From Antedon mediterranea (taxonomy: Eukaryota; Animalia; Echinodermata), in assembly GCF_964355755.1 (NCBI RefSeq), contig NC_092673.1:5456001-5520000 (forward strand): a stretch of DNA of 64,000 bases, given 5' to 3'. This document shows positions 780-59,205 of this stretch, in pieces. Each line of letters begins with the position of its first letter. Position 1 is the first letter of the stretch. A program made the translations under genes and the position numbers. Under the pieces are notes generated by a model, which was not told where the DNA came from, ran no database searches, and saw only the letters and a program-made list of their open reading frames with translations.

Positions 780-3652
780 CTGCTGGTGAGCGTGCATCAA
801 CAGAGCTAACAAATATTCCCAAGCCGTGTTCTGAGCCACCTCTGATGCTAAATCCAAGGCTTCCGCATACCTTCTGTATGGTTATATGACAAAGACTTGA
901 CGGGGAATGCTGGCCTACGTGAACAGATCCTACAGTGTACAAAAAACAAAATACAATACAAATAATATTAGGGGGAAGAGAGAGAGTTTGTATGGTTATA
1001 AAAAAAAATGTGGCTATTGCATGCATCCATACGCATAGGGTATCAAAATGACCAGAATTATACTGGAAATGTATTTGAAAACTGCACTGGGGTATAGTAT
1101 CTTTGCTTGTAAGCAGTACTAAAGTCGTTTTGTTTAACCAATCATTTATTAAATACAATAATATTCGGGTAATGATATCCCAATCATAATAAACTACCTG
1201 TATGAAGTGAAATTTAAAACAAAGAGGTGTACAAAAAAATTTTTTACAAATTTTGTAAAAGTACAGTATGTTTTTCAAATTCAGGGATGTAGGCCTACTG
1301 TAGCTACCGAAATCTGAAGGTGACTAAATTTTGTTAGTACCAGCAGCTTTCAGGAAGACTTATTTAGGGGGATCTTTGACACCTTTTTTTATAGTATTGT
1401 ATAAATATTGTAGATCATCACAACATTTTTAGAAGATGAAATCAATCGATCAGCCAATTATTTATATTCATTGCAAACAGCTGAACATAAGCCTCAAGTA
1501 AATGATATAATTAAAGGCTGATTTGGTAATCATCACATTTATTGAAGCATAAATACTCATTTGCATATTGATTTATTCCATAGAACAGGTGTTTGTATTT
1601 ACCAGGTAGTATTATAATATTTGATTTTTATCACCTGGAAGAGACACATTTGATGTGTATCACAATAGCATTTGAAATTAACTTACAATGACTCATATAG
1701 TATTAATCATACAATTGTTATTATTATTACAGTATAATTATTATAATATTGTATTCAAAATTACAAAAGTATATAATTAATATCATTATACACGGGTAGC
1801 TGTGTAATCTATGCAGATTGAAACAATTTATTGTTGATTTTTTATTTCTCCTTCCTTGACCATTTTTATCTTTGCTATTAATATTATCATCTTTAATTTT
1901 CTCCAATGCAATTTTTAAATTTCTCGTAAATCTGAAATATAAAAAGATGTATGATCAAATATAATCCAGAACATATCTCCATTTAATTACAGATCATGTG
2001 AGGAGCATGTCTTAAGACAACTTATCATCTGAATGACACCAATGTCCTTAGTAGAAAGGTGTTCATACTGTAGAGTATACAGTAATTAAAATAGGTATGT
2101 ATTGATTTGGTAATGAGGAGATCTTAACTGTAATATTGTAGCTTACTGCATTTCATGATTCACTATACGACTATGTTGCTGTCGAGTCGAAAAGTCATTC
2201 ATAAACAAATGTGAGCATGCACAGATCCGTATAAGAAACCAAGAGAACCAGAGATACAGTATTTACTATAAAAACTACTCAATGTTTTGAAATAATAGAT
2301 TGGATTGTATATTCATTCATTTATTCAAACTAAATGAACAGGCCTATACTACAGTGTACAGTACGTAATTCTGATTCTGAAAAGTGCAAATATCGTACTG
2401 TACCTGTAGCTTGATAATTCCTTTATTAAAAAAATAAACAGAGCACTATTCAACATCTTTCATTTCGTACAAATGTATTCGCCTAGTGGTAAACAGGCTT
2501 TACTGTACTGTAGGTAAAAAACTGAATATGGGGCATTTGATAAATTGTTTTTTCTTTGTATTATATTTAGCCAATAGGAGAGCAATGTTACTATCGTCTA
2601 AGGCATTGCCAACGATAGGGTTCTGAGATATTAATGTACTATACAGTATTTATAAATTCCCATGGAATATACAGTACAGTACATCTCCATGTCTTTGTGA
2701 GGTTGTAATTTGTCATTAGACAAAATCCTGACATATGACAGGACTTGAATCCACGATTGGTAGCCAAGCATCATAACCACAACTCCACTACAGTACTACT
2801 ACTGTAGTCAGTAAATTATTGCACATGTACCAGAAGTGGATTAGTGAGGGATTACCAAACCTAAATCTACGGCAGACAAAACAAAAACCAACCTGTTGAG
2901 TATCTTCTTGGAATAACAAACACGTTTGTACGAACATTAGTATAAATCCTAGCCATAATTGGAATACCGTAATACTTAAAACCATGTGTACAAAACACAA
3001 TAAACTGTAGGCCTGTATATGGTGTGAAAACAGCACACAAGAATCAGTTGCTGCTATGATAGACTATCAACATAAATACTAATACAGCATTGATTTGTGG
3101 TGGCTTTGAATATAGATCACATGATATGGTTGGTAAGTGGGGGAAAATCACCAGATGTTAGTCAATGGCAGCAGAAAACAATAGAGTAGTAACAGAGGTT
3201 GTTAAACTGAATGCAAGGATCTTTTGTTTGATTGATCGTGAATATTAGTTGACAGAGAAATACTATATTACATGTGTTGATCACAATACTTTGCATATTG
3301 AAAATCTTAAATTAAATGGAATGGAAAAAGAAAAATTACCATCCGTATTTTGTTCTCGTTTTCTTCTTGTAGTTGGGGAGTATGGGTGGGCCATCTCAGA
3401 GTATGGAGCTAGTTCATCAAACTGCTGCACGTGCGATGATGGAATCAAGGATCGAATTTCCTTCAAAAGGTCTTTCTTTCGTGGAGTATCAAGCGCACTT
3501 TGCAGGCATATCATCAACTTTTCCACGTCTTTATACGTGTGGTACTGTCGTAAGATATCATGTAGATAATCACGTTCTAGATCGGTTAGTAACGAGTTGG
3601 CTTTTCGTTGGAATTTCTTCAGATTCCGCTGTAGGTCTAACGTGGCAGCCAT
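780..3652 (-). CDS. PDZD7/whirlin-family scaffold protein, first two coding exons seen (3340-3652, 780-929); gene continues beyond window start
   Basis: Exon 3340-3652 encodes a harmonin-homology (HHD) domain (ERDYLHDILRQYH...LLKEIRSLIP). Exon 780-929 encodes PDZ1 (LGFSIRGGSEHGLGIFVS). GT/AG sites and phase 1 match. Acceptor at 3737-3738; probable non-coding first exon ends at donor AAG|GTAAGA at 17049. Confidence 0.85.
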
Positions 3653-5240: not shown

Positions 5241-5340
5241 TTGGAGTATCTGTACAATAGTATTAGCTTATCAGTATGCAGACTTTTATGTATTGTACAG
5301 ATACTGTAATAGTTATTTTTATGCCTGTCTATCTCCACTG

Positions 5341-6129
5341 TACGGAAGCCCGTTCGGGCCACAAGTTAACTATATTTTAAAAGCTGTTATCTGGCGGCCG
5401 CCACTTAATTATCTGGCGGCCGCCACTTAATAATTAGTACATGTCCCCGTCACGTGACATGTACGTGCATTGGATCAGAGGCGATGATGCATGCAATAAA
5501 ATAGGGAACGCCAGTATTCTCTTCACATGCGGTGACGTCATGCTCTCAAACTATTTCATTAATGCTCTTATACCGCACACCATTATCTTATACTCATTCC
5601 TAATGCTCTTATGTGCATAACTGATGCTCTTATAGTTATACTCATTCTTAATTCTCTTATACTCTTTCTTAATGCTCTTATACTCTTTCTTAATGCTCTT
5701 ATACGGGTCTTATACTCATTCTTAATGCTCTTATACTCTTTCGTCATGCTCTTATATGACTTTCCATGCTCTTATACTCTTTCGTCATTCTAAACTATGC
5801 GACGTATCATGCTCTTATGAGGTAATTAAAAATGCATCGACACATTCTCGACGCACGTGGCGCACTACTTCCAATGTAAAATAATCGACGGCTGTACAAA
5901 TAAGTCTAGGAAAGTTACAATTATCTTAATTATCTGGCGGCCGCCAGATAATTATCTGGCGGCCACCAGATAATTAAGTGGCGGCCGCCAGATAATTAAG
6001 TGGCGGCCGCCAGATAATTAAGTGGCGGCCGCCAGATAATTAAGTGGCGGCTGCCAGATAATTAAGTGGCGGCCGCCAGATAACAGCTTTTAAAATATAG
6101 TTAACTTGTGGCCCGAACGGGCTTCCGTA
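5341..6129. mobile_element. Non-autonomous DNA transposon, probably IS3EU-type
   Basis: Long TIRs TACGGAAGCCCGTTCGGGCCACAAG... / ...CCCGAACGGGCTTCCGTA; 6-bp TSD CCACTG (5335-5340, 6130-6135); subterminal 22-bp repeats containing GCGGCCGC; internal tgctcttata repeats. Confidence 0.85.
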
Positions 6130-6835
6130 CCACTGCTATTTTACAATATGCATAAATAGATCAATACACAATTAACATTTTCTATGCTTTTACCAACTTT
6201 CAGAAAAACCTTAACAAAATTTACATGAATACATGTTAACAACAGCAGTGAAAGAAGTCATAAAAAAGATTTTGAACCATGGAGATACACAGTAACAGTA
6301 CTCTGTCTCAATGTCTATGCATTGCCAAACCCAGGAATGTAAAACACTGTATGGGTAAAATGATGTAATGTGTTACTGTATAATTTAATGGGGGTCCTCC
6401 TCTCCCTCTGGATCCACCTTTTATTATTTTATGTTTAAGTACAGAATATCTTCTGAAGTACTGTATTAAAAAAAGTGGTAAAATTATTTTTTAAATGAAA
6501 TTTTATTGCGATACCTACAGTACAGTACTGTAAGCTGTGATGAAGTGTACAAAATTGTATCATTGTATTAGAAAGTCTATGAATTGATTTTCTATTATGA
6601 GGTTGGCTAACGATGTCATGATCTACCGAAGCAGAATAAGTAGAAGGCTTTGCAGTTTTAAAAACATCGATGGAAATCATTCGCACATTTGTACGCTAAA
6701 TTTGTAATCAATCATATCAATGTCTCACAATTATTACGTTATAAACAACGCATTTCTAATATACTGTATCATACTTCCTGAGAGACATATTTACACCTAC
6801 GGTAGAAAATATCAACAATTTTTGTTTATAAAAAA

Positions 6836-7630
6836 TGTGACGTCCATAAACCCCCGGACTAATTTGGAATAGTCCAAGTACACAAGGTGACAGGGTGGGC
6901 ATAGGTGGCATGAGGTCATTAAAGATTTGCCACATATGAGTGTAACATCTATAAAATCCTTGTCATCATTTATTGTGTATTACTATTCTTAGGTACGTAA
7001 ATATTATTCTCTGTATTATTTTGTATTATAGAGATAATTTCCATAATGTAGTTATTGTTCAGGATGATAGATATTACCCTTGGGATAGATATGTTGTTCA
7101 TACAATATGGTTACAGTTGCGGTTCTACACCGTATAATGAGAGGGTAAGCCAAGGTTAACATTCTTTCCAGGAGGGAACGTCCTTGGATTCAGCATGGTT
7201 ACTATGACAACTAAGATAAGAGTATCATTGTGTTATTTTATAGGTTACGTATGAAGTATAACTTGATCATAGTGACTTTGAGAGTTATATTTGGTATAGA
7301 CACAAGTACAAGTCATGTATTATTTATACTGTATTGATGTTCACCTTGGTATAATAGGAAGGTGAAGAAGTGTTACAGGTTTATTACTTATTTAACACGA
7401 CCTTAGTTGAGAGATAATGCTTCATCGTTAGTATTTTTAGAGTTATGAAATACAGTAGCAGATGTACTGTAGTTTTAAGCTTACTATGTTTGATGATAAG
7501 AGGTCCATTAAAGATTTGCCACATATGAGTGTAACATCTATAAAATCCTTGTCATCATTTATTGTGTATTACTATTCTTAGATCTCTCAACGACGGAAAA
7601 CATCCCTGTACTCATTGACCAGGGGTAACA
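6836..7630 (+). repeat. 5' LTR (795 bp)
   Basis: Matches the 3' LTR by eye except for one 5-bp indel; internal ~75-bp direct repeat. Confidence 0.97.
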
Positions 7631-7633
7631 TTT

Positions 7634-7652
7634 TGGAGGCACTGCCCGGATT
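7634..7652 (+). promoter_or_regulatory. Primer-binding site, probably tRNA-Thr
   Basis: TGGAGGCACTGCCCGGATT, 3 nt after the LTR; resembles the complement of a tRNA-Thr 3' end (TGGAGGCACCGCTGGGATT, recalled). Confidence 0.6.
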
Positions 7653-7663
7653 CATCTGAAACT

Positions 7664-8782
7664 ATGGCTGAAAGAGAGGAACAGAATGTGGAAGGTGACG
7701 TCAATCCGGTTGAGAATCAGGACGATAATGGTGCTGAGGATGCAGGAGTAAATATCGGTTTACAGGAGGAATATGAAAAAAAGCTACGGGACATGATGGC
7801 AGCGCATGAAGAACAACTGAAGAAACTACAACAGAGCTTTAAAGAAGCTGCAAATGCTAAGCCGACGACAGTAGTTTCTAGAAGGGACTTCAGGATGAGT
7901 GGCCAAATTGGTGAGCCAGGCCAGAAAGACCGATTAGCATTTGGAAGTTTGATTCACCAAATTGAATCTGGCAAGAGCCGAGGATACAGTGATCAGGAGA
8001 TTATTGAAGCTGTTATTAAAGCAATAGTACCAGGTGCGTCACTCCGGAGCTACTTAGAAGGTAAACTGGGGTTAACTCTGCCCAAACTAAGAGCTATCCT
8101 TAGGGCTCACTTTGGAGAGGAAAATGCCACAAAATTGTTTCACCGACTATCAAGTGCGGTACAAGATCCAAAAGAAACCCCACAGACATTCCTTCTGCGG
8201 GTACTGGATTTAAAACAAAGAATCTTGTTTTCTTCGCAAGAAGAAAACTCTGGGATCAAGTATGAGCCAAAGCTGGTTCAAAACATGGTCAGGCAAGCCC
8301 TTCTAACTGGTTTCCAAGAAGACGAAATCCGATCCGAGATAGCACCACACCTCAAACGAAACATCGAGGATGAGGAAGTAATGGATGCGCTTAATATAGC
8401 GGTAAACAATTACCAGGAACGTTTGGCTAAACTCAAAGCAGGAAGGACTAAAGTTTGCAAAGTGGATGTGGATGAATCTTTGAGAAAGGGATCAGGTTGT
8501 GAAAAGCAAAATGAAAACAAACGTTTTGAACTATTCACTCACGAGATGAGGGACATGTTACAGGCCGGATTAAATCAAATTCGACAAGAAGTGGGTGTAA
8601 TTGGTCAACAACAAGCCACGACCCAGAACAACAACCACGGAAACCGGCCTGCAGTTCGGGCATGTGATGGATGTCGCACACGTGGTACCAGATGCAATCA
8701 CTGTTTCAAGTGTGGAAGCAGTGAACATTTTGCTCGTGGTTGTCGATCCCAACGCAGAAATCAGGCGGGAAACGAGCAGTGA
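7664..8782 (+). CDS. gag: Gypsy Gag (capsid plus CCHC zinc knuckle)
   Basis: 372-aa ORF just after the PBS; QDPKETPQTFLLRV capsid-like motif; CFKCGSSEHFARGC knuckle. Confidence 0.93.
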   Translation: MAEREEQNVEGDVNPVENQDDNGAEDAGVNIGLQEEYEKKLRDMMAAHEEQLKKLQQSFKEAANAKPTTVVSRRDFRMSGQIGEPGQKDRLAFGSLIHQIESGKSRGYSDQEIIEAVIKAIVPGASLRSYLEGKLGLTLPKLRAILRAHFGEENATKLFHRLSSAVQDPKETPQTFLLRVLDLKQRILFSSQEENSGIKYEPKLVQNMVRQALLTGFQEDEIRSEIAPHLKRNIEDEEVMDALNIAVNNYQERLAKLKAGRTKVCKVDVDESLRKGSGCEKQNENKRFELFTHEMRDMLQAGLNQIRQEVGVIGQQQATTQNNNHGNRPAVRACDGCRTRGTRCNHCFKCGSSEHFARGCRSQRRNQAGNEQ

Positions 8783-11700
8783 TCACCCAGACGGGACGAG
8801 GCGTGATCAATTCTACCGAAAAGTCCCCTTATGTAAATAGTTTGCCAGGATACATAAATCAAATAGGACATATTAATCCTGTTCACCATCAAAGACTTGT
8901 CAAACTGGTGGGCCGAAAGTGTATCGTAAATTGTAAATTAAATGATGTAAATTGTAAGGTTCTCTGGGACACCGGAGCACAAGTTTCATTGTTGCCGACG
9001 ACCTGGTTAAAGACACATTTTCCAAACCAGCAACTGAGAGACCTAAAGGAACTACTGGATGATACAAACCTTGAGCTAAGTACAGCCGATGGAACGAATC
9101 TTCCATTCGACGGATGGACTGAGGTGTTTGTTGAATTATCGTTGGATGGAAAATCCACACAGCAGGTCAGAGTTCCTTTTCTAGTTACTAAAACAAATCT
9201 AAGTGAACCAATAATCGGTTACAACGTTGTGGAACATATAATAATGGGTCCGGCTCGACTACATCCGAATGCCATAAAAGCGTTTCCAAAGTTTCATAAT
9301 AAGAAGGTAGACTGTTTAATAAATTTGGTCAAGGAAAACACTGGCACTATGGGCACTGTTACGTTCGACGGAAACGATGTTGTCATCAGGAAAGGAGAGA
9401 CAGTTTCAATAAAATGCCGAGCCTATATGGGAACAAAAGATAAAGTTATGGCTATGTTTGAACCGAGCGTTGAAAATCTTCTATCAATTGGACTAGAAAT
9501 GTACGATACTGTTGTTGAAATACAAGGAAATTCCTGTAGACTGTATGCGCATAACCCAACACCACACGAAATTATGCTGAGACGGAGAATAACCGTTGGA
9601 CATGTGGAAGGAATACAAAGCGTATTGTTACCTACACAATCAAGAACGGAGTATAGCAAGAAAAAAGGCGACTCTCAAAATCCAACCACCAAAGTTACAG
9701 TAGGAGCTACAACCTCGGAAGGCGGTACGGACGAATTATGGGACCCGCCTGTGAGTCTAGACCACCTTACCTCGGAACAACAGACGGTAGCCAAACAAAT
9801 GCTACGCGAGGAGTCAGCTACTTTCTCAAAGGGAGACTTTGATATTGGGTGCTCCCCTGAATTACAAATGAGCTTACAACTTACTGACAATATCCCTGTA
9901 CAGAAATCATATACTTCAATCCCTCGACCGTTGTATGAAGAGGTAAAACAGTACATTCATGAACTTTTAAGCAAGGGGTGGATCAAGAAGTCACAGTCTT
10001 CATATTCATCTCCAGTAGTATGTGTCCGAAAAAAGGACGGCAGCCTTAGATTGTGTTGTGATTTCCGTGGACTTAATTTAAAGACTGTACCCGATAGGTA
10101 TCCGATACCAAGAATGCAAGATGTACTCGATGGCCTCAGTGGACAAAAGTGGTTCTCAACTTTGGATCAGGGAAAAGCCTATCATCAAGGATTCATATCT
10201 CCCAATAGCCAACCCCTAACCGCTTTTGTGACTCCATGGGGATTATTTCAATGGAACAGGATTCCATTTGGTTTGAAAAACGCACCTGCGGTATACCAAA
10301 GGTTTATGGGAACAGTACTAGAGGACATTAATCATCGAATCTGTGAGGTGTACTTGGATGATGTCCTGATCTACAGTCAAAATTTTCATGAACAAGTGGA
10401 GAACATTCGAAAAGTTCTGCAACGATTCCGACAGCACGGTGTAAAAGTCAAACCTGAAAAGTGTAGCCTCTTTCGGAAAGAAGTGCGGTACCTAGGGAAG
10501 GTAGTATCCGCAGAGGGGTATCGACCAGACACCAAAGACATTGTTGCCATGACGTCATTAAAACAAAAGACACAAAGGACAGTTGGCGATGTGAGGAAAG
10601 TACTGGGACTGATTGGTTACTACCGACGTTATATAAAAGATTTCTCAAAAAGGGCGAAACCCATTTTTGACCTTCTGAAGAAAGATTTACCCACGTCACA
10701 AACATCGTCAAAGAAGATAAAAGGTCAAACATCATCAAAAACCCCTATTGAATGGACAAGAAATCACCAAAGCATATTGGATAAATTCATCGATGAATTA
10801 GTGAGTGAACCCATATTAGCTTATCCAGATTTTTGTTCACCATTTGTGTTACATACAGATGCCTCGATGGATGGTCTTGGAGCAGTACTTTATCAAAGGC
10901 AAAACGGAAAAATGCGAGTTATTGGGTATGGTTCCCGATCTCTAAGTCCCTCAGAGAAGAATTACCACTTACACTCCGGTAAACTCGAATTTTTGGCTTT
11001 GAAATGGGCAGTGACTGAACATTTCCGTGACTACTTGTACCATGCACCGTCATTCACGGTTTATACAGACAACAACCCGCTGACCTACGTTCTGACATCG
11101 GCGAAACTGAATGCCACAGGTCATCGATGGGTGGCAGAACTTGCCGATTTTCACTTTGACATTAAATACAGGCCGGGTAAATCTAATATTGATGCTGACG
11201 TTCTGTCGAGGATACCTCTTGATATCGACCGCTACATCAAAGAATGTATTTCATGTATATCAACGGATACTATCAAAGCTATGTCAAACGGAGTGTTTGC
11301 ACTGCAATCCGGCCAAGTGACGCTACTTTCTGGAGTTTCAGCAAACCCAACCGATAATGAACCAGTAACACCTGTGACCAAACATTCCTCGATATTTTGC
11401 CCCGCAGATATCCTCCAAGAACAGCGTATGGATGATACAATTTTAGCGGTAATACCATTTGTCGAAAGAAACCGACCGCCAACTAAAAATGAAAGAACGA
11501 AGTTATCACTTAAAACCAACCTATTACTACGACAGTGGAAAAAGTTGAGACTAGATGACAACGGAAATCTTCGACGAGAAACATCGGATCGGTCACAGCT
11601 AGTTCTACCGCAACAACTAATTTCTAGAGTGCTAACGGAGCTGCATGACAACATGGGTCATTTGGGCGTAGAGAGAGTACTTCAAATGGCACGGGACAGA

Positions 11701-13268
11701 TTTTATTGGCCAAAAATGCAAAAAGACATTGAGGACTACATCACCAAGCGTTGCTCCTGTATTAAGAAGAAGAAGCCGGTGAGAAATGACAAAGCTCCAT
11801 TAAGACCAATAAGTACAACTGAACCATTTGAGCTGGTCTCTATTGACTTCCTTCACCTAGAGCGTAGTAAGGGCGGGTATGAGTATATCCTAGTGGTTAT
11901 GGACCACTTTACCAGATTCGCAGTGGCCTACCCAACTACAAATAAGTCTGGAAAAACCGCAGCCGACAAAATATTTAATGATTTTTGTTTAAAGTTTGGG
12001 TTTCCTAAACGCCTACATCATGACCAAGGACGGGAATTTGAGAATAGTTTGTTTTACTACCTCCAGAAATATTCAGGTGTGGAACATTCCAGAACAACAC
12101 CATATCATCCACAGGGAAATGGGCAAGTGGAGCGGTTTAACAGAACGTTACTCTCCATGCTCAGAACACTGGAGGATGACCAGAAACCGGATTGGAAGAA
12201 CCATTTGACCAAACTTGTACATGCTTATAATGCAACCAAGCATGACACGACGGGTTTCTCTCCTCATTTTCTTTTATTCGGAAGACAGCCAAGATTACCT
12301 GTTGATATACTTTTCAACTTGTCGCGATCGGGTCCAGAGAAAACTACTCCACAGTATGTGCAAGCATGGAAACGGCAGATGAAGGAAGCATACCAGATTG
12401 TCAGAGAACGGGCAGGAATAACAAGTGAGAACAGCAAGCAACGGTACAATCGGAAAGCCCACGCCATTACTTTACACCCAGGAGATCGCGTATTAGTAAG
12501 GAAACTGGCACAACCAGGTGGTCCTGGAAAGTTGCAAAATTATTGGGAAAATGATATCTTTAAGGTAGTACGACAGCAAGGGGATTTACCAGTATATATC
12601 GTAAAACCCGAATGTGGAGTTGGCCGGACTCGTACACTACACCGAAATCATCTTCTACAGTACCTTGTGATTCTTTACCGTCAGAAGAGCGACTACAACC
12701 TAAACCAACATCAACCAAAAAGAAATGCATGCCGAAGACACAGAATGCACAACACACTATGACAGATAGCGAGCTGACAGATGGCGATGACGAGGATAGA
12801 TGGGATAGTGTAGGCCAAATTGAACCGACATTGGATAACAGGGTAAATGAAACAGATTCTTCAAGTGATACATCAGCGATTTTAGATCCGAATGCAACTG
12901 CATTTATACCACCCCGACTACAGTTTGTCGATGAAACTGACGTACCGCAAATTCAGGATCTGGCACCAAACATGGATGAACAGCAATGTTTCGCTGATGA
13001 CAGGTCGAATGAGGATGAATTAGTTGATCAACTACAGGAAAATGAGAACAGAATTTCCAATACTGGTAGTGTAGTAGAGGAAGCAGAAGACCGGCCAATC
13101 CGAAATAGGCGTCCACCTCAAACACTGACTTACAGCACCATGGGAACGCCTGACCCATCTTGTATGAAGATAACAGAAAGCATCGACAGAACAAGCGAAA
13201 AGCAGCGGAAACTGAATTTTATATCGTATCTATTTATACCCCAGTCGTGTCGGTTGTTCGGCAGTTAG
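8767..13268 (+). CDS. pol: Gypsy Pol (protease, RT, RNase H, integrase), reached by -1 frameshift; C-terminus disrupted by a 5-bp insertion at 12658-12662
   Basis: LWDTGAQVS, YLDD, LHTDAS, HHCC and DDE integrase (SIDF, HHDQGREFE, GQVER). ORF 8740-12762 joins ORF 12612-13268 when CAGTA is removed. Confidence 0.95.
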
Positions 13269-13403
13269 TTTACCGATGATATGGCCGTGATGTATTATAT
13301 AATATTTTTTTCGTTCTTCAAACGTGTTTTCCTTTCTCATTATGTACATATTCGTAGATTAAGTTTGAAATGCCGTTACGTCATTTTTTTTAGTGGGGGA
13401 GGG

Positions 13404-14203
13404 TGTGACGTCCATAAACCCCCGGACTAATTTGGAATAGTCCAAGTACACAAGGTGACAGGGTGGGCATAGGTGGCATGAGGTCATTAAAGATTTGCCA
13501 CATATGAGTGTAACATCTATAAAATCCTTGTCATCATTTATTGTGTATTACTATTCTTAGGTACGTAAATATTATTCTCTGTATTATTTTGTATTATAGA
13601 GATAATTTCCATAATGTAGTTATTGTTCAGGATGATAGATATTACCCTTGGGATAGATATGTTGTTCATACAATATGGTTACAGTTGCGGTTCTACACCG
13701 TATAATGAGAGGGTAAGCCAAGGTTAACATTCTTTCCAGGAGGGAACGTCCTTGGATTCAGCATGGTTACTATGACAACTAAGATAAGAGTATCATTGTG
13801 TTATTTTATAGGTTACGTATGAAGTATAACTTGATCATAGTGACTTTGAGAGTTATATTTGGTATAGACACAAGTACAAGTCATGTATTATTTATACTGT
13901 ATTGATGTTCACCTTGGTATAATAGGAAGGTGAAGAAGTGTTACAGGTTTATTACTTATTTAACACGACCTTAGTTGAGAGATAATGCTTCATCGTTAGT
14001 ATTTTTAGAGTTATGAAATACAGTAGCAGATGTACTGTAGTTTTAAGCTTACAGTACTATGTTTGATGATAAGAGGTCCATTAAAGATTTGCCACATATG
14101 AGTGTAACATCTATAAAATCCTTGTCATCATTTATTGTGTATTACTATTCTTAGATCTCTCAACGACGGAAAACATCCCTGTACTCATTGACCAGGGGTA
14201 ACA
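13404..14203 (+). repeat. 3' LTR (800 bp)
   Basis: Copy of the 5' LTR with an extra CAGTA at 14052-14056. Confidence 0.97.
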
Positions 14204-14732
14204 AAAATAAGATGGCGTGTTATTTGGTCAGCCATTTTACGGCGGTTTTAAACTAAAATTTAATTTATATATCTCTCATGTTCTACTACTGTAGGAATTC
14301 AAATCTAATTTTTGCTGTGTTGTTTATTCACATTTAAAGGATTCATACAAAATATTTTTAAAATTTATTTTTAAAAGCTTCCATATCCATTATAAAACCT
14401 TCAAAATTGTGTACAGTAGTGATAAAAAAAATATCAGCAAATTTTATGGAGTTACATGTATACATTCAGTCTCCATGTGAAATATTTAATAGTCAGCAAC
14501 ACAATACTTCCATAATGTTACAAACAGCAGTCTCTTCTCCATGGCAACAACAACTGTTATTTCAACAAATAATACAAGAAATATTTTCAGACATTTTTGC
14601 TCATATTAAATAAGTAAATTACACAATTCCAAAGTAATACTGTATATAAATTTCAATCAGATGCTATAATCGTTACTAAATTGTTTAAAATAAGGATTAT
14701 TATGATTGTTACTGTATATCATAATGTTATTA

Positions 14733-14752
14733 CAGGGAGATACATCTCCCTG
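14733..14752. mobile_element. 20-bp P-type mini-hairpin or excision footprint
   Basis: CAGGGAGATACATCTCCCTG flanked by 7-bp direct repeat GTTATTA. Confidence 0.65.
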
Positions 14753-15782
14753 GTTATTATTAATACTGTACAAAATTGTTACAGTAGTACTATTCATATG
14801 GCAATAATGCATATGTTTTGATCATGTTCAGAAAGACCTTTTGACTTGACAGCTGCTTAGTACGGCATAAGGGCATGTCAATATCATTTAAAATGAACGA
14901 TTTATGAATCATCAACACTAACCATATAAAATTAAAAATTCTAGTATACAGTGTAATCAAGGCAATGTAACAGCTCTCAGATCAAAGGGTTTAACTGTGG
15001 CTGCGACACAATCATGATAAACCCCAGCCTTACAGACACTGCATGCCACGGAGAATATGTACAAAGTACAGTACTGTTAGTCTTTGTCGCAGCCAGACCA
15101 AGGATCAAAGGACTGTTATGAGTTTTTATCCTGGCAAGATGAGCACACTGTCCTGTTGTTAGATTGCCATGTTGTAATATGAGATTAAAAGATGCGAGTT
15201 TAGTGGTGACTGAACAGTAATCTCAGTTGAATTAGGAAGAGTACAGTAAAAGCATTGAGATGCTGCAAAAGGAATAGCAGTAACAATGAACAAACACATT
15301 CATTGCGGTAATAGAGTACATTTCAGTCAGTGCCGACTATGGCTAGACATAATACTGTAGACCCATTCAAGATTTGATATTTGATGCTAAAAATGTTTAT
15401 GGTAGATGAACAAGTACATAACTACAGTACATTCAGATTTTAAAGGATATCTTAAATTACATAATAGTTTCTCTTTAAATCAACAATTGTTGTGTGTAGC
15501 AGCTAAGTGACAGAAAAGTTTATGTTAAGAATAGGTGTAAATTGGTATCATTGCATCAAGTTAAGTACAGAATTACTGCAGAAGAGACCAAATGTCTTTT
15601 GTTCAGACATGGTTTAAAGGTCTTAACTTTTTTCTTAACTTTTTGGTTGAACTAAAATAACGTACTATTTACTTATACTGTACTGTATACAGTATAATGA
15701 CATATAATTTACAATGCCTGCTGTATTCAAAGATAGGTATAAAGTACAATACAGATTATACAGTACATCATAATGTATGATA

Positions 15783-16275
15783 TGATTCAATTCAATTCAA
15801 TTTATTTATTGCTGCAAATGCCATCAAGGGCTAATATCCGCTTAAACATACTACATACAAACATATACATATTTACATTTAAAATTTAAACACATAAAAA
15901 TTATAGTCATTACTATACTGTTGTAGTTATTATTTTTTTAAATTATTGTAATTGTTGTTTTTATGATTATTGTTATTGTTATTATAATAATTAATATAAA
16001 TGTAATAAATTATAGGTTACATCTTAAGGGCAGTTTTATTGTGAAGCATTGTGAAGCACAGAGAAGGAAGACACGTTAAGATGAAACGATTGAGCGAGTG
16101 AGAGTGAGTGAGGTAGAGTAGAGTGAAGAAAACGAGTAGAGTGAAAAAAACGAGTAGTATGTCCTTTAAAGGGAAGATAAGAAAAGTGTCGATTATGGCG
16201 AAGGACGAACAGGAGGAAGAAATGAACGAAGAGGGTGTTGAGGAGACTGCGTGATAGCACAAAGAAATTTAGGTA
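15783..16275 (-). mobile_element. 5'-truncated CR1/L2-clade LINE 3' end
   Basis: Minus strand reads ITQSPQHPLRSFLPP / YLPFKGHTTRFFHS across a frameshift (typical ORF2 tail), then an AT-rich 3' UTR ending aataaataaa(ttgaa)n. Confidence 0.5.
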
Positions 16276-16352
16276 AAAAATACTGATGCCTTAAAGAGAG
16301 GGAAATAACAGGGCTTTATTTCTTCATGCTTAAATCATAGAGAAACTTAAAC

Positions 16353-16379
16353 CATGGACCTATAAATTAGAGGTCCATG
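16353..16379. mobile_element. 27-bp P-type mini-hairpin or excision footprint
   Basis: CATGGACCtataaattagaGGTCCATG flanked by 7-bp TSD CTTAAAC; near-identical copy at 50783. Confidence 0.7.
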
Positions 16380-17048
16380 CTTAAACTAAGTAAGGATCAC
16401 ACTTAGCGTTAACGTACATTGTTGATTTAATCAGTTTATTGTGTGAGTATTAACAATGAGGTAAAAAGGGTATTCATTCACTATTGGCTCTTTTATTAGG
16501 GATTAGAGACTTATCCCTATGACATCAGATCATGGAGAAATTCCTTTAGACCACCCCCTGTACATGTACTGTAGGCGTACAATACATTTGCACATGAAAT
16601 AACAAATACAATCAAACTTGTAGATTGTGTTTTGTGATGAAAATCAATACAGTAATTAACATGTCATTGCAATATATTTGAATTCAAAAAATAATTAATA
16701 CAAATTTTAAAATCCTTTTAAATTTAACTACAGTACTTGTTTATAATATAAATATTCCCAGGGAGATCCCTAATATTCCGTACACATATTTTATTTCAAA
16801 TTAATTGTTCAGATAGTGATAATTCTGAAATGGTGCAAATCGCTCATATTACGCTACTACATCGGTTAATAAATAATACTAGGGCCTAGGCCTAGGCTAT
16901 AATATGCATTGTAGTATTACCACCAGACTGAGCTAAAAAACTAACCAACTAACTCTCTGGGCCCCTACCTAATATTATTCGTGACAAATGCAAAAAACAA
17001 CTTGCTCTAACATAATCAACATATCTAGTATATGCATCCACTTCTTAC

Positions 17049-20006: not shown

Positions 20007-23000
20007 TTATTCTTGATATTTTAATAACTTGCACCCCTTAGTTTTATAGGCTGGCCATCTGCACTTAGGACAGCAATGATTTCCCCCTCTCAGCCATGTA
20101 ACAATGCAACCATGGTGGTAAACATGTCCACATGGCAACCCACAAACGGTGTCGTTTTGGTGGTACACTTCCAGGCATATGGCACACTCCAAACATGTAT
20201 TGTAGTTACTGGTAGTACATTCACGTTCTCGATAAACGGTACTTGAACCTTTATCATGTGATCTTGAATTGACATTTTGATTGGAGTCCGTCACTTGATT
20301 GACGTCACCATGATTTACTCTGCCTGAAGCTGGCATAACATCGTCATTTTGCGAAAAAGAAACATTCTGATTATCAAGCGAGTTACTACTACAAGAACTA
20401 TTCAATTTGTTGACATCCGTTCCATTTTCCTCATCAAATGCAACATTTTCCGTTCCTTTCCCACCGCAAAATTTCCACGTTGGTAGGTTTGAAATGTAAT
20501 CCATTGGAATAACTGGGTGTAACCAAAAACCAGGAACCGCAAGTCGTTCAATTAACATGTCCAATCCTTCTTCCACATGCACTCTATTCAAACGAGGGCC
20601 GCGTAAATTTGACGAAGGCCTGATAAGAAACATGTAATAATCTTGAATAACTCTATGTAACCAAGCTGCATTTGATTCTTGCGATACATTCGTCAATCTC
20701 TTACGATATTTTTCGATAAACCCAATAACACAACAATATATTAAGAATGTTAACAAAAGAAATGTCGTATAGTGAGAGTACACGAGAAGATCACTACGTA
20801 TATAACACATAAAATCAGATATCAGAAATTTACGAAGGATTTTGTTGCCGAAATTCCAAACAGGTTTAAGAACGGATAGTTGTAAAGTTCCAAGAAACGG
20901 TAACCAAAATGCCAAAAAGCTGAAATTTGATTTTCCAAATGTCCATGAAAAATAAACGAATCGTTTCAATATACCACCTTGTGTTATGAAGAAATCAAAA
21001 ACACAAAGAATATTCACAGCAAATAAACTCCATATAAATGCATCATTAATTTCCGGAGATAAAGTTTTTAGATACAGAACAAGTTTATCATAAGACATAT
21101 ATTCACCTGCGTGTATTCCGTAACGTACATCACCTTCTGATGTTGCAATTAATATAGATGGAATTCTCGTTTTAATTTTTTTGGAATTTTTAATTTCAGA
21201 AAACTGTCTTTTATTTGTTGATATAAATGCAAACTTAATCCTTCCTGTAAATTTTGCACCAAGTGATGAGAAAAATAACGGTGGTTCACTGGCACTCGAA
21301 AAATAAGCGATGCGTACTGGAAATTGATTGGGACGATTTCTTGCCATTTCCATCCACGGTTTAGCATTATCAAGATTGTAAAACCTTGTGACCTTTGACA
21401 TTAAATGTGCGTTTAATCGATCAAGTATGTAGGATGCTGAACTTGGTTTGTAATAGTGGAACATGGTCACATGATCTTTGTACGTCTCGCCCTGAGGCAT
21501 TGCCAGCAGAACGCTTTGTTCCAACCAGTTTTTCATCAAACAGAAACTGAAAGAAATATAAATTATTTTTCCATAGTATTTTTGTGTAAGGGCGTGTGGC
21601 GCAGTGTGATGGACGTTCGACTACTGATCGTGAGATTGAGGTTCAAATCTAATGCTCGTCGCATTGCTTGTATCCTTAGGCAAGATACTTTACTTACGTT
21701 TGCCTCTCTCCACCCAGGTGTATAAATAGGAACCCTGTTAGTGTTAGATCAAGACACAACTTTGTGCTGGTTACTAGCTGCATTATGGGAGTATTTTTCC
21801 ATACGTGTTTGATCAAAAAAATGACTGGGGTAATAATGTTCAGCGGTTAGAGGTTTCACAACATTAGGCGCTATATAAATCCACGATATTATTATTATTT
21901 TAAAGTAAAATAGAAAAGTAAAATCTGTATTTTTAATAGAAACTAAAACTTATAATAATAATAATAATAATTTTCTGATAATGATCAAATAAAGATCGAA
22001 ACGTTGAATCACGGCTTGCTTCACGTTATTGGGATATGTTATTTAAACATAACCAGTGCATCTATTGGTTAAATAAATGTAATATAGTTTTTTTATATAG
22101 TGGTATGAAAAACTATGTTTGTACAACTTTTTATGTATTACTGTATATTTCATTGTGTTGTTATTAGTAAAGAGCAGTTATTCAGTTTGGGTTTTTTTTT
22201 CTGGCTTCTTATCTATCTTACTTTGTATCCAAACTACAGTTAAATGTTCCTGTTCTTATACCAAATTTGGACACTTTTCTTCTAATTGTTTTCCATGAAT
22301 TTTTAGAATGCAAGGGTGGACGATCTGGAGGTACAACCTGAAAAATGTAAAAATATTAGTCAAATAAAGGAACATCAGACTAGCATGTGAGAGGCATGGG
22401 TTTAGGTCATATTGCTTAAGAAAAGAAAGAACATTTGCTCTCATTGCCTCATCCATCAGATGTAAAGCCGCTGGTCCCATGTATTTATTGCTCTATAAAG
22501 AACTTGGTACACTATTCGAAAAGAGCAGGGGATCGTCTCCAGGTGTGCTGATGATTTCTGAGTTGATTTCTTGGACATTAATTTGTTCAATTATCGACAT
22601 TCGAAAGTTCTTTAATTCTAAAGCTCTGTCTAGACTATCAAACTTTATGTGTCCATATATGGACATGATGTCATATCAATACCATATTTGGGCATATCAC
22701 TACTATATTTAGGCATATCACTAACATATTTGGTCATATCACTATCATATTTGGGCAATTTACCTGAATCACCCAGACACTGTCTTTCTTGTCCTCTACT
22801 TCCTCATAGAAGTGTCCTCTAGACCTGAACAATGTGGTATCATTTTCTTCCAATTCACCATCTTCCTGGATTTCCATCAATTCACCATCATGGACATCAC
22901 CTACACAATGAAAAATAAAGATGAATAAAATCAAAGTATATTTTCTTGTAGTTTTAAATAGTTATTAATTTTTACCAAAACAAAAGGTTTTCACTTATAA

Positions 23001-24715: not shown

Positions 24716-27700
24716 TTAAAATAGTTTATAGTCAGTTAGGTCAGCCATAATTAATATACAATATACATTAATGATAATACAGGTAATGACTCCTCCACAT
24801 TTAATTAAAACTATTTGAGATTTATATGGTAGTAGATTGATATCTATGCATTTAGGAATATAAGCTGGCCAACGACACTTTGGGCAAATGTGGTTAAGCT
24901 CCAACCAAGGTTTAATGCACTCTTTATGGTGAATATGATTGCATGGTAACTTGGAACAAACTTGCTGACTGAATAGATCAAGACATATGCAACATTGGTC
25001 ACCATTAATATCATTCTCATCGTCATCGAGCAACTCGTCAAATTCCCCAGTTGGTAGTCTACCAATATAATCTGGTGAAAGAAATCTTAACCATCCCATC
25101 ATTGCCCAAAACTTATGTCGCAAATATTCTGGACGATGGTATTCATTTCGTGACTTTCCAAGCAAGAGAAGATAAAAATCTTCAGAAATTTTGTTTACCC
25201 AGTGCTGGTTTGATTCTAGCGAAACAGAATCAGATCTTGTAAGGTACAACGTAATGCCAATTGTAGAACAAATGATTAAAAATGGTACTAACAGAGAAAC
25301 AGGATTCTGTGAGTACATGAGAAGATCATTACGTATGTACCACATGAAGTAGGAAAGAAGTTTGGCAGGATTAGAAAGAGAAAATAAAATATTAACTATA
25401 ATAGATAATATAACATACTTTACACTTGTTAATGTTAAAAAAAACAAGCGTCTGAAAATACCACCTCGTGTTAAACAGAACTCTAAAAGGCAAAGACTGT
25501 TATAAAGCAAAAACTCACCACGATAAAAAACATCAGGGTTTAAAGTTTGTATGTAAAAATATAAGTTCCTATATTCTAAAAATTCTCCATGTTGGTTACC
25601 ATATTGTAATTGACCTTCTGGGGTTAGAATTACTATAGAAGGCACTTTTACAGATTGGGAACTTTTTGGAAACCAAAATCTCCTTTTTGGGGTTGATATG
25701 AATGCAAACTGATGCATTCCTGAAAACATATTAGCAAGCCTTGTAAAAAAAAGGGGTGGGGTTTCAGCTTTTGAGAAGTAGGCAACTTTAATTTGCAAAT
25801 CATAATTTTTTTCATTTGCCTTGTCCATCCCTTGCTGAACAGTTTGGAAATCATTCTTTTTTTTGTTTGCCTTGTCCATCCATTGCCAAACAGATTTAGG
25901 ATTGTAAAATCTTGTCACCTTTGGTTTTAAATGATTGTTTATTCTCCCAAATATGTACTCTGGTGAGTGTGATTCATAGATGTATTTTTCAGATTGAGAA
26001 ATAACGAGTAAAATACTTGGTTTGTTCCATTGCTTTGAGTCACATAACCTGAGAAATAAACAAAATAGTATATTTCAATATTTATTATTCAAATTAGTCA
26101 AATTTGTCTTGATTTGTACATATTTGTTGTCCCTAACAGGACTAGGTTTAAGGCCAATTTACACAGACGACTGATAACGATAAACGGAAAACCGCATAGC
26201 TTGTCCCACATAGAATCTAGCCTGAGTGGAAACCTCCCATTTTGTGTAAATGGTCAAAAGAAATAACAGATTCTATATTTTTATTACTGTTACGAGTTAC
26301 CGCTCGTCTGTGTAAATTGCCTTTACTTTACATCCGTCCGCAATCAATCGCCTACTCCATAAATAAAGACCTAACTTTTTCCGCAGGCCAGCTCTCGCTA
26401 GATGTTTGGTGTTTCGCCTTTGGAACTGAAGACCTGAGTTCGCGTTTGGTGATAAAAAAACAAAAGTCATCTACTGAGACTTGAACTCACAAAGATTAGT
26501 CCACATCATCACGAGACAACTTTTTACCTGCTGCGCCACGTAACTTGCTTGAAGAAATTAATCAACTAAACTATTTAAACTATGCATACATAGCGCCCTC
26601 ATTTGTTATTTGCCCCCTATAGATGTGACGAAAAAGACCGTTTGTGATTGGTCAATACTCAAGGTAGTAACCTGGTAGGCCTACGCATGGTGCGCTGAAC
26701 ATCCGGTGATTCGGCTTGAAGAAATATTATTCGGCCTACCTGATAATAATAATGTAGGCTTATTGATGAAAATTCTTCTGTTATTATTTAAACGACCTAG
26801 GCCTATAGGTGAATATTTTATTTCCAAGGAATCATTAATTATTAATATCTGTATATTATTCTTCGCAAGGTAAAGTGAATGCAACACCTAACTATAGTAT
26901 AGGCAGGGTTATTACATAAAGGAGGCCTAGCTACCCGACCCCGTAGATATTCTACTTGTTGCTATATAATATAACATATATCGCCTTTATATCGGTAAAA
27001 TATAAGATTTGACATCCACTCGGGAATGATATTATGCTCTCGAGAATTATATTTCCCTCAGCTAGCCCTGTGGGAAATATATATTCCCTCGAGGCTAGGA
27101 AAATATCATTCCCTCGGGGATGTCAAATCTAATATATTACCTCTAAGCAGGCAATATCTGTATAATATAATTCACTTACTGTTTATTTGTAGTGCAATTG
27201 ACAGTTGCTGTATTTATATGAAAGTAGTTGGCCTTTCTTTCAATTTTTTCCCATTGCCTTTTAGTCATTAAATTTTGCGTTCCACTAGGAACAATCTGAA
27301 AAATATTTCAACCCTAATCATTCCAATATTTCATTACTCCAAATGACCCAAGATGTTCTTTATAAACTTTTTCAATAAAACATAACAAAATTATTATTTT
27401 GAACTCAAAAAGCATCTGGCATCTGCTGGTTTAGCATCATTGGAAGATTCAATATGAATAAAAAAATAGTTTATTCAGTAGATATGAAGCAGTCTGCTTT
27501 AGTTAGTCATCTTTTCACAAAATGATATTGAATAGACTTCAACGTACCTGAATGACCCATACACCATTTGCTATCCTATTATTAAAGTGTACACTGGATC
27601 TAAACGTTTTTGAGTGACTGTTTGTATCAGGTGCGTACAGCGCTCCTTCAAGAACTTCACCTGTAAAATTTGTGCTTCATTAATTAAATAATTAAATTTG

Positions 27701-48727: not shown

Positions 48728-51700
48728 ATGTCTCAGACAGCAGGAAGAAATTCAGAAGATACTTCATTACTAACAGATCCTCGTCTTGAAAGTTCACTGA
48801 ATCGAAACTTTAAGGAAGATACCGAGTACAGAGTTTATAAACGAAGATGGTTCATTTTGGCTGTACTTGGTATTCTTAATTTTTCTAATGCACTGGTAGG
48901 TAAATTATTCATGCATGTCATCAATATATATTTTACAAATTATTTATTTAATCACACTCTTGTTAACAATAAGACCAGCCAGAATAACAATGTATATAAT
49001 ATAGCAATTAAAAAATAAACACACACAAACACGTCAAACAAAATAACAAGGTTTATAGCAGTCTTACAATAATCAATTAATCAAATAAATATTGATTCAT
49101 CAAACAAAGACTTGTATGTGTTATGTATGATTTGTGCAATTTGTTCAATCGTGGTTAACATACTGTATATATACAGTCAGTGTTAATTTGTAGAGACTTT
49201 TCGATTGCTGCCAAGAAAAAATCAAGTGAAATTCTAATTGCTATATTGTCTGCATGTCTACACTACAACTGTACCATACTAACCAACAATCAAATCATTG
49301 TTTTGAATGCTTTACTTCTCACAGGAAAAACAGCAATTCAATTTTTCAATACTAAAGCTAATCTAGATCTCTTGGTATCCACAAAGAAGTCTCTTTTAAT
49401 TAAGGATAAGATGTTTAATTATAAATAAAAACTTCCTTCCTATTGTCTTCCTAAAAATATAATTTGTTAAAATTTTGTGTTGAATATGCCATTTTAATGT
49501 CACATAACAGTTATTTACTTGGACCAACAACTGGATCATCAAAATAAAATAATTTACCTGAAAAAATGCAAATGGTTTTTGGTTAAAATAGCCATTTCTT
49601 TTGACTTTTTATAGACTGAAATAATTATTTTTTTTGGTTTTTTTTTCTATGGAAGTGAATAAGCCAAATAGGCTAAAAAGTCTGATTTTATAAATCTTTA
49701 TTTTTCATGATTTTGGGGGACAATACATCTTTAATTTATTTAATTGACATATAACATTTTCATTATATAAAATAACCATGTTTATTAAACACAAATTTAA
49801 AACAAAATTATTGTAAAAAAAGCAGTAGAATTTCCATGATTTATTTGAAAAGAAACTCAAAAGATCGCTATCAGTATTTGCTTGTGTTAAATTATTTTCT
49901 GTTTAAAACAGGCAGAATCCGAAAGGATTTAAAAAGGACACGTGATGTAGTAAGTCCTAATTTGGTCACAAGGTCGTCTACCAGGATTTGCTTTATGTTT
50001 TTACATTAAAATCAATTTCTTTTTAAAATGATCAGAATCCTAAAAGGATTTAAAAAGAACATGTGACGTGTTGAGTTCTAATTTGGTCACAAGGTCCTCT
50101 ACCAGGATTTGCTTTATGTGTTTATGTTCAAATTAATTTCTTTTCAAAATAAGCAGAATCCTAAAAGGATTTAAAAGGGACGTCATGTGACATGGAGGCT
50201 TCTGATTTGGTCACAAAGTTTTTAAGAAGAAAAAAGTTTCTGGTGACCTACAGTACCTCGGTCATATTCCTGTTTTATTTACATTTTTGATGATAAGAAT
50301 ATAAGAAATGAATGCAAAAATAAAAAATTATTGTTTTTTTTTTTTTTTTATGTAACTGAATCATGAATGTTTTAATCATTTTTTTTTTCAGTCTTGGTTG
50401 ACTTTTAGTCCAGTTTCTGACCACTCGGCAAATTTTTATAATGTGAGTCCATCAAAAATCGATTGGCTATCGACAGTGTACATGATTGCTGCTATACCAG
50501 TTGGATTCCTGGCTATTTATCTATTAGATACATTTGGACTAAGATTAGGGGTAAGAACTATGACGATTTCATTAAAATAAAACTGTACCTATACCTATCC
50601 CGCTAATGAAATAATTGCATGGAAATAAAGATAACAAAAATGAGGATGCTTATAAAATGATGGTGTAATAATTAAATGTCATGTGACGACCTTGATTAGA
50701 GCAGTATATACCAATACAGGAAATTGTTTGTGGTTGTTGTGTTGGGCTTGCTTACTTGTTATTCCAGGGTCATTAGGTCAAACATGGACCTATAAATTAT
50801 GGGTCCGTTCAAATCTTAACTCACTCTCTTAAAGTACCAAGATTTGTCTCATAGCCTCACATTAGATAATTTAGAAAGATCTATCTGAATAGGCCTATGC
50901 TGTTTGAAATGTTTGTTGAAATAAAAAATAAATAATAATATGATTGTTCTTTGATTTTCTTTTTCAGATAATCACCGGAGCAACATTAAATTTTCTTGGG
51001 CTGGCTGTTCGTTACTTAAGTTCTTTTGATTTTATTTCAAAGGACCATCATATTCCGTACATGATCGTGCTTGGTGGACAGACACTATGTGCTATTGCTC
51101 AACCGTTTTTACTCTTTGCACCAACTAAACTTGCAGCTACTTGGTTTGCGGGAGACCAGAGGGCAGTAGCTAATATGATAGCATCGATGCTGAACCCACT
51201 CGGGCTCCTTGTTGTTAATATTGCGTCGCCCGCCATTGTGAAAAAAGATGGGGATATTACGTTAATGGTGTGAACTCCGTTTGTATTTTATAAATTGCTT
51301 GTTATGAATAGATACAGTAGTTGGAAGTGATAGTATGATTAGTGTGAATAAATAATGGAAATAGATAATGTGAATAAATAGTGTGAATAGATAGTCTGAA
51401 TAGATAATGGGAATCGATAGTGGGAATTGGTAGTGTGAATAGATAATGGGAATAGATAGTATGAATAGATAGTGGGAATAGATAGTGGGAATAGATAGTG
51501 GGAATAGATAATGTGAATAAATAGTGTGAATAGATAGTCTGAATAGATAATGGGAATCGATAGTGTGAATAGATAGTGTGAATAGATAATGGGAATAGAT
51601 AATATGAATAGATAGTGGGAATAGATAGTGGGAATGGATAGTACAAATAGATAGTGGGAATAGATAATGGAAATAGATAATGGAAATAGATATTATGAAT

Positions 51701-58815: not shown

Positions 58816-59205
58816 TTAAAGATATATTGTCCCCCTAAAAAAATAATAATTGTTTACATTTTTTGTTGTTGTTGTTGAATATGCCATTTTAATATCACAT
58901 AATAGTTATTTTTTGTTGTTGTTGTTGAATATGCCATTTTAATATCACATAATACCGTAGTTATTCACTTTGACCAAAAACTGGATAAAATTTTCTGAAA
59001 AATGTAATTTAAAGAAAAATAAATTGTAAATTTGGTTGAAATCATGGAGTAACTCCATGGTTGAAATTAACCATTTCTTTTGTCTTTTTATGAAATAATT
59101 ATTTTTTTTTAATTTTTGATTCTACAGAAGTGAATAACTTGATTAAAACTGCAAAATGGTCTATTCAAAATCTGATTTTATTAATCTTTAGACAATACAT
59201 TGTTA
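58816..59205. mobile_element. TTAA-flanked Kolobok-like MITE
   Basis: ttaaagatatattgtcccc ... gacaatacattgttaa; related copies at ~43410-43650, ~49440-49735, ~54120-54300. Confidence 0.6.
59043..59059. mobile_element. 17-bp P-type mini-hairpin or excision footprint
   Basis: CATGGAGTAACTCCATG flanked by 8-bp TSD GTTGAAAT; absent from the sister MITE copy at ~49580. Confidence 0.7.

What the first reader, a model, noticed from the sequence alone, without database searches (positions are those of the whole stretch)
14726..16779. Ultra-short CANRG..CYNTG hairpins with 7-bp TSDs: probable P-element excision footprints
Seen: GTTATTA[CAGGGAGATACATCTCCCTG]GTTATTA at 14733, CTTAAAC[CATGGACC..GGTCCATG]CTTAAAC at 16353, ATATTCC[CAGGGAGATCCCTA]ATATTCC at 16759. 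Decayed ones lie at ~2661, 6278, 14446 and 50783. Known: P-superfamily ends are CANRG with 7-8-bp TSDs, and P transposase leaves 17-nt overhangs whose repair retains short pieces of both TIRs. Inference: a second scar class from several P families, too short for repeat finders.
Basis: partly seen in the sequence, partly recalled or inferred. Interest (0 to 1): 0.7.

Follow-up and report, generated by a model that had tools for sequence, protein, structure and literature searches.

The report
P-type transposon scars in feather star
These 14-27-base palindromes in a feather-star genome are real, dispersed insertions, likely the scars left when relatives of the fruit-fly P jumping gene cut themselves out, and the same 27-base scar also occurs in another animal, although the parent jumping gene was not found.

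Summary
The three quoted loci are exact, and a fourth lies at 59043 (17 bp, 8-bp TSD). Exact TSD+CANRG hairpins: 3 seen, 0.003-0.02 expected. The window is crinoid DNA. In four runs of one sample, 30-34 contigs lie on the 27-bp hairpin with unrelated flanks; a 25-bp form exists. Sister copies of the repeat holding 59043 lack the hairpin. One of 30 metagenome hits (L012, beside an animal neuropeptide gene, likely a protostome) carries the same 27-mer, one base different, with an 8-bp TSD. The anatomy matches sequenced Drosophila P excision junctions (PMC2895639). A 17-nt tail would anneal best to give 27, then 25 bp, which is suggestive only. Against: no parent element or transposase found, size ceiling untested, CANRG consensus unverified in print, 16759 breaks the pattern, two of four 'decayed' loci lack TSDs. 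Verdict: likely P-superfamily excision scars, a new instance of a known kind; this scan noted such scars in four other genomes. The shared cross-animal scar is the notable part.

The parts
14726..14759 (.). 20-bp hairpin (14733-14752, 9-bp arms, 2-nt centre) between exact 7-bp direct repeats (14726-14732, 14753-14759)
   Evidence: folding z -4.6; spanned by contigs of both listed allele types with only 0-6 gap letters in about 690 bp
16346..16386 (.). 27-bp hairpin (16353-16379, 13+1+13, one private substitution) between exact 7-bp direct repeats; member of a dispersed family
   Evidence: 30-34 contigs per run lie on it with unlike flanks; 1 mismatch to L012:1189-1215
16752..16779 (.). 14-bp asymmetric remnant (16759-16772), same 9-nt left arm as 14733, last base A instead of G, exact 7-bp direct repeats
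   Evidence: weak alone (folding z -1.1)
59035..59067 (.).
   Evidence: sister repeat copies near 49500-49680 and 46920-47060 lack the hairpin and hold one similar 8-mer
50776..50813 (.). decayed copy of the 27-bp family (50783-50806, last 3 nt lost), TSD 6 of 7, between two MFS-coding stretches (likely an intron)
14437..14485 (.). probable decayed 33-bp remnant (14445-14477); its left arm matches one arm of 59043 over 10 of 11 nt; TSD 5 of 8
   Evidence: folding z -0.9
2661..2691 (.). possible old remnant with 14733-like arms, interrupted by TACAGTA words; no TSD; unconfirmed
6278..6313 (.). possible old remnant with 14733-like left arm; no TSD; unconfirmed

Best explanation
These are real, dispersed insertions made of two short inverted arms between 7-8-bp direct repeats, and they are likely the repaired donor sites left when P-superfamily DNA transposons excised. 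Inferred steps: a P-type element inserts and duplicates 7 or 8 bp of target; its transposase later cuts each end with a long stagger, leaving the first bases of each terminal repeat as a 3' single-stranded tail on the flanks (17 nt in Drosophila, shown there, assumed here); host end joining anneals the two tails at a microhomology, trims and seals them, so both TSD copies and a piece of each end remain. In the 27-bp family, tail bases 11-17 would be a near-palindrome, so two 17-nt tails would pair at 6 of 7 positions with both 3' ends paired; this would give the same 27-bp scar again and again, and in different hosts. The scars would be immobile and neutral.
For: Excess over chance with TSD (3 vs 0.003-0.02) and in a termini-blind scan (3 of 4 hits). 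Dispersal: 31, 34, 30 and 33 contigs laid, depth plateau exactly over 16355-16378, 59-74% run on unlike, loose ends mostly agree only 0.58-0.68. Insertion: 2 sister repeat copies align better to the empty form (scores 96 vs 91 and 79 vs 62; a third 42 vs 40 is uninformative) and lack the termini. Same anatomy as Drosophila junctions, where the 8-bp TSD is kept on both sides, 17-nt tails are joined at microhomologies and single junctions recur, one short-microhomology join in 14 isolates of about 68 (PMC2895639 Table 1 and Fig. 6 legend, passages). TSDs of 7 or 8 bp within one P-superfamily element, consensus GTANTAC (PMC4168063, passages); 4 of 5 exact TSDs here start GT or end AC, background 0.107, P about 0.001, test chosen after looking. 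All intact lengths (14, 17, 20, 27) are under 34. For a 17-nt tail the two best registers give 27 and 25 bp, the two forms seen in all four runs; a 16-nt tail would favour 28 bp, not listed among the laid contigs. No room for the internal transposase sites that P elements carry (PMC7776569, passages).
Against: No parent element or P transposase was found. The register test is partly circular, because bases past position 14 are read from the palindromic product, any tail of 17 nt or more favours 27, and the 25-bp form could be a TA slip of the 27-mer. The read-laying tool can only lay copies close to 27 bp, so neither a size ceiling nor the absence of 28-bp forms is shown. All four runs are one sample; no empty allele was seen at 14733, 16353 or 16759. 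The paralog alignment is ragged (about 70% alike). CANRG is recalled and not met by the two characterised P ends. A GT..AC target bias is also known for some hAT elements (recalled). Two copies of the 27-mer in 57 kb would imply thousands genome-wide, yet only about 30 contigs were laid; tool sensitivity may explain this but was not measured.
Confidence: 0.72

Rival explanations
1. They are extreme internal-deletion remnants of another TIR superfamily (hAT, including 7-bp-TSD hAT groups), or of P elements by abortive gap repair from the sister chromatid rather than by joining of cut tails.
For: CAGGG fits hAT-type ends and 8-bp TSDs fit hAT (both recalled); abortive gap repair with microhomology joining makes short derivatives of Ac, P, Tc1 and Mutator (PMC3814204, passages); no parent ties the ends to a P transposase.
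Against: 3 of 4 exact window TSDs are 7 bp, and one family shows both 7 (window) and 8 (L012), as Galileo does. Gap repair should give a broad length spread, not one 27-bp junction at many sites and in two animals. hAT excision leaves hairpinned flanks, not element ends (recalled).
Confidence: 0.15
2. The 27-bp palindrome (and the 17-20-bp ones) is itself a mobile micro-element that a transposase inserts as a unit, making its own TSD.
For: Near-invariant length and sequence at many unrelated sites and in a second animal; no longer parent seen.
Against: No room for internal binding sites; with 17-nt staggered cuts a 27-bp unit would fall into two non-overlapping 10-nt strands (inference); 25-bp and 29-bp forms and an asymmetric 14-bp form exist; recurrent junctions are normal for P repair.
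Confidence: 0.08
3. Chance, or host repair that makes local palindromes and direct repeats without any transposon.
For: Hairpins without TSD are not enriched; 16759, 2661 and 6278 are weak alone; the window is rich in short repeats.
Against: The arms are shared between unrelated loci and with L012 (chance that one of 30 17-mer hits continues into the exact right arm is about 3e-5 before the TSD is counted), so they are not copied from local flanks.
Confidence: 0.03

Closest known systems
End-joined donor sites of the Drosophila melanogaster P element, P{wa} junctions (PMC2895639; passages and Tables 1-3 seen)
   Same: TSD kept on both sides; a piece of each terminal repeat joined at a microhomology; lengths up to 34 bp before inserts; symmetric and asymmetric forms; recurrent junctions.
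   Different: Those are laboratory products of one known element with an 8-bp TSD. Here they are natural, dispersed, from several families, mostly with 7-bp TSDs, in a crinoid; ends differ from the fly's after the third or fourth base; the main scar has odd length (central mismatch); no parent is known.
Galileo, P superfamily (PMC4168063; abstract and passages)
   Same: 7-bp TSDs with occasional 8-bp ones in one family; target consensus starting GT and ending AC.
   Different: Galileo copies are long-TIR elements of hundreds of bases or more; the word 'footprint' does not occur in that paper's main text.
Zebrafish Pdre2 P-like element (PMC10983969; passages; supplements not seen)
   Same: P-like element outside insects, short 13-bp TIRs starting CAT, 8-bp TSD.
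   Different: Different TIR sequence; the passages report deletions after excision and do not map the cut depth.
MITEs made by abortive gap repair and microhomology joining, e.g. Gnome, Elf, Goblin, Made1 (PMC3814204; passages)
   Same: Both ends kept, inside lost, TSD present, repeated family.
   Different: MITEs keep enough end sequence to move; these units are only 14-27 bp.
Tc1/mariner excision footprints TAC(A/T)GTA (motif recalled; also in earlier scan notes)
   Same: Scars of cut-and-paste excision that accumulate in a genome; 96 such words occur in the non-array window against about 17 expected.
   Different: 2-bp TA duplication and 3 retained bases, against 7-8-bp TSDs and 14-27 retained bases.

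Membership tests
P-superfamily excision footprint | 7-8-bp direct repeat on both sides | tested here: met
   4 window loci exact (7, 7, 7, 8 bp) and L012 (8 bp)
P-superfamily excision footprint | Pieces of both terminal inverted repeats joined directly, at most 34 bp without inserts | tested here: met
   14, 17, 20, 27 bp intact; 33 bp decayed; arms shared between loci. Window only; genome-wide ceiling not tested
P-superfamily excision footprint | Insertion relative to an empty site | tested here: met
   1 of 4 loci testable: 2 of 3 sister repeat copies of 59043 fit the empty form; no empty allele in the single sample
P-superfamily excision footprint | P-type terminal motif (CANRG, recalled) | tested here: inconclusive
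   3 of 4 loci fit at both ends; motif not found in the 15 of 48 papers listed; Drosophila and zebrafish ends do not fit position 5
P-superfamily excision footprint | 17-nt staggered cut | tested here: inconclusive
   Registers for a 17-nt tail give 27 then 25 bp, as seen; partly circular
P-superfamily excision footprint | Parent element with the same ends and a P/THAP9-type transposase in the genome | not testable with these tools
   No genome held; none in the window or in 32 pattern hits
P-superfamily excision footprint | Target bias GT..AC as in Galileo | tested here: met
   4 of 5 exact TSDs, background 0.107; post hoc and not specific to P
Canonical hAT remnant | 8-bp TSD | tested here: not met
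   1 of 4 exact window loci; 3 are 7 bp. 7-bp hAT groups are recalled and not excluded
MITE (mobile non-autonomous element) | Dispersed family of uniform size with TIRs and TSD | tested here: met
   27-bp family
MITE (mobile non-autonomous element) | Subterminal or internal sequence for transposase binding | tested here: not met
   Units are arms only, centre 1-2 nt; P sites lie inside the 31-bp TIR boundary, further in

The most novel reading that the evidence does not exclude
The 27-bp palindrome is not a scar but a self-contained mobile unit, far smaller than any MITE, inserted whole by a P-type enzyme and shared between a crinoid and a protostome by horizontal transfer.
Probability: 0.08. 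Interest if true: 0.85.

Novelty: new member of a known kind. Interest (0 to 1): 0.45.

Why it matters
The 17-nt staggered cut is described as a distinguishing feature of P transposition from Drosophila work (PMC7776569, passages); the zebrafish paper's passages do not map the cut. Natural scars would record cut depth and repair choice in animals where no P enzyme has been assayed, and their lengths can be read from assemblies alone. One near-identical scar in a crinoid and in a second, probably protostome, animal implies a P family with the same first 14-17 bases in both, by transfer or deep conservation, and the same repair outcome. Scars this short fall below repeat-library cut-offs (over 100 bp in the crinoid genome paper PMC13079724, passage), so past P activity would be undercounted. 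No effect on host genes is indicated.

Tried and rejected
Whole-genome search: no genome held. Longer CANRG elements with TSD in the window, 61 bp to 20 kb: 0. Pfam on 120 stop-to-stop frames of 62 aa or more outside the LTR element and arrays: no transposase or THAP family; shorter or broken remnants were not scanned. First 17 nt of the 27-mer: 30 metagenome loci, 29 without a TSD-flanked right end and taken as chance; 2 viral loci, no right end. Full 27-mer: 0 in viral contigs, 0 in prokaryote genomes; 20-mer family 0 in viral contigs; plasmids one chance hit, E 4. My early idea that 16353 and 50783 share exactly 17 nt because of the cut depth was dropped: the break at base 18 is a private substitution in 16353. 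The idea that 16353 sits in a repeat whose other copies give an empty site failed: depth returns to single-copy on both sides. The CAKGGAS scan (11 rows vs 1.0-1.6 expected) uses a motif drawn from these loci and counts overlapping rows, so it is not counted as evidence. Three papers were not held. Ten literature searches (listings seen) showed no description of natural genome-wide P scars; the library lacks most subscription papers and Repbase reports, so this is not proof of absence.

Full report
Setting. The window is AT-rich animal DNA. Its RNF103-like exon is 100% identical over 96% of the query to a protein named from the crinoid Antedon mediterranea, and 61% to Anneissia japonica. The three quoted loci lie in non-coding DNA between an LTR retrotransposon (6836-14203) and the RNF103-like exon (20010-21620). 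No whole genome was held.

Observation. The three strings are exact. A scan for CANRG..CYNTG of 10-60 bp with an exact 7- or 8-bp direct repeat returns 3 loci: 14733 (20 bp), 16353 (27 bp) and a new one, 59043 (17 bp, 8-bp TSD). Markov nulls of order 1, 3 and 5 on the 57,406 bases outside tandem arrays give means of 0.007, 0.02 and 0.003, maximum 1 in 900 runs. Without the TSD the hairpins are only weakly enriched (7-bp arms 3 vs about 0.5; 6-bp arms 4 vs about 1.9). A termini-blind scan gives 4 hits, 3 of them these loci. Locus 16759 ends in A where G is expected and is weak alone. Of the four decayed loci, 50783 is a clear relative of 16353, 14445 is plausible, and 2661 and 6278 have no TSD.

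Dispersal. Four public runs of one sample hold the region. On 16322-16411, 31, 34, 30 and 33 contigs were laid; summed depth is flat over 16355-16378 at 36-46 times the single-contig level and drops to that level or below outside 16340-16390; 59-74% of laid contigs run on unlike, and loose ends from several contigs agree only 0.58-0.68. Depth is not a copy number, and one locus can give several contigs, so this shows a dispersed family of at least tens of sites, no more. Two contigs in every run lack 2 bases at 16369 (25-bp form); one contig in one run has 2 extra. The tool lays only pieces that match over roughly 30 letters or more (listed pieces are 38-61), so parents matching 17 nt, the 14-20-bp families and distant size classes are invisible to it. 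In the wider laying, contigs that differ by a few gap letters span 14733 and 16759 without losing the hairpin, so no empty allele was seen (tables were cut to the best-supported rows).

Empty site. Locus 59043 lies in a dispersed AT-rich repeat. With the hairpin and one 8-mer removed by computation, two sister copies align better (96 vs 91, 79 vs 62) and a third is uninformative (42 vs 40); none of the three holds the termini. The alignments are ragged, so this is moderate support for insertion.

A second animal. A scan of metagenome contigs for the first 17 nt of the 27-mer gave 30 loci. One, L012:1189-1215, continues into a perfect 13+1+13 palindrome with an exact 8-bp TSD, one base from each window copy; chance is about 3e-5 before the TSD. 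L012 is 49% GC and holds an exon for repeated KR-flanked peptides ending in WG, with 11 unnamed homologues at 58-76% and Atlas neighbours among animal neuropeptide precursors. I read it as a Wamide precursor (inference from the peptide pattern); Wamides are reported absent from deuterostomes (PMC7270403, passages), so the host is likely not an echinoderm.

Mechanism. In Drosophila, P excision leaves 17-nt 3' tails on the flanks; sequenced junctions keep both TSD copies and join the tails at microhomologies, including an imperfect 8-nt one, with some junctions recurring many times (PMC2895639, passages and tables; PMC7776569, passages). That is the anatomy seen here. An odd-length palindrome that recurs at many sites and in two animals needs a preferred joint. 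If the tail is the first 17 nt of the 27-mer, the best register pairs 6 of 7 bases with both 3' ends paired and yields 27 bp; the next yield 25 and 32 bp; a 16-nt tail would favour 28 bp. The 27 and 25 forms are the ones seen. This is inference: bases past 14 are read from the product, longer tails also favour 27, and 25 can arise by a TA slip. TSDs of 7 and 8 bp in one family and a GT..AC bias match Galileo (PMC4168063; 4 of 5 exact TSDs, post hoc).

What is missing. No longer element with these ends in the window, no transposase family in 120 frames, none in 32 pattern hits. The CANRG consensus is recalled from the finding and was not found in print here; the fly and zebrafish ends do not have G at position 5. 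So 'works like a P excision scar' is well supported, while 'made by a P-superfamily enzyme' rests on anatomy and TSD size.

Novelty. The kind is known from fly experiments. Ten literature searches (listings only) showed no account of natural genome-wide P scars, but coverage is partial and bioRxiv supplements (zebrafish excision junctions) were not seen. This scan's earlier notes report similar scars in four other genomes; they are unchecked AI notes, and one gave me the lead to PMC2895639. Verdict: new member of a known kind, interest 0.45, raised by the near-identical scar in a second animal.

Noticed in passing
window 6836-14203: Full-length Gypsy-like LTR retrotransposon with open 387-aa and 1345-aa frames; the two LTRs (about 795 and 800 bp) have 0 mismatches in the 465 and 149 bases compared, so it is a recent insertion.
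   Followed up: partly
window-wide, outside arrays: TACAGTA/TACTGTA 96 times vs about 17 expected and TAGGCCTA 20 times vs 0.7: likely Tc1/mariner-type scars; a 13-bp tandem array at 4825-5255 is built of such words.
   Followed up: partly
window 16329-16386: A third near-copy of the 16353 TSD (6 of 7) lies 17 bp upstream and is followed by CATAGAG, another CANRG start: possibly a stacked, older half-scar at a reused target.
   Followed up: no
window 5341-6129: 789-bp MITE-like element with about 95-bp arms (98% complementary) holding 22-bp subrepeats, flanked by a 6-bp direct repeat; superfamily not determined.
   Followed up: partly
window 20010-21620, 24719-26074, 35733-36923: Three tandem RNF103-like RING genes of falling completeness; Anneissia also has two on one contig.
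   Followed up: no
L012:1154-1170: A partial left arm of the 27-bp family (one extra base) lies about 35 bp upstream of the full copy.
   Followed up: no
window 14979-15168 and 15785-16350: High-copy repeats in the read sets (depth hundreds to over a thousand times single copy); the second begins with a TTCAA-repeat tail, perhaps a LINE or Penelope end.
   Followed up: no
window 18391, 22640, 27759, 41993, 42495, 44307, 52274, 62986, 63768: Dispersed repeat family with 21-bp internal subrepeats and a conserved end (families D12, D13, D17, D18); type not determined.
   Followed up: no
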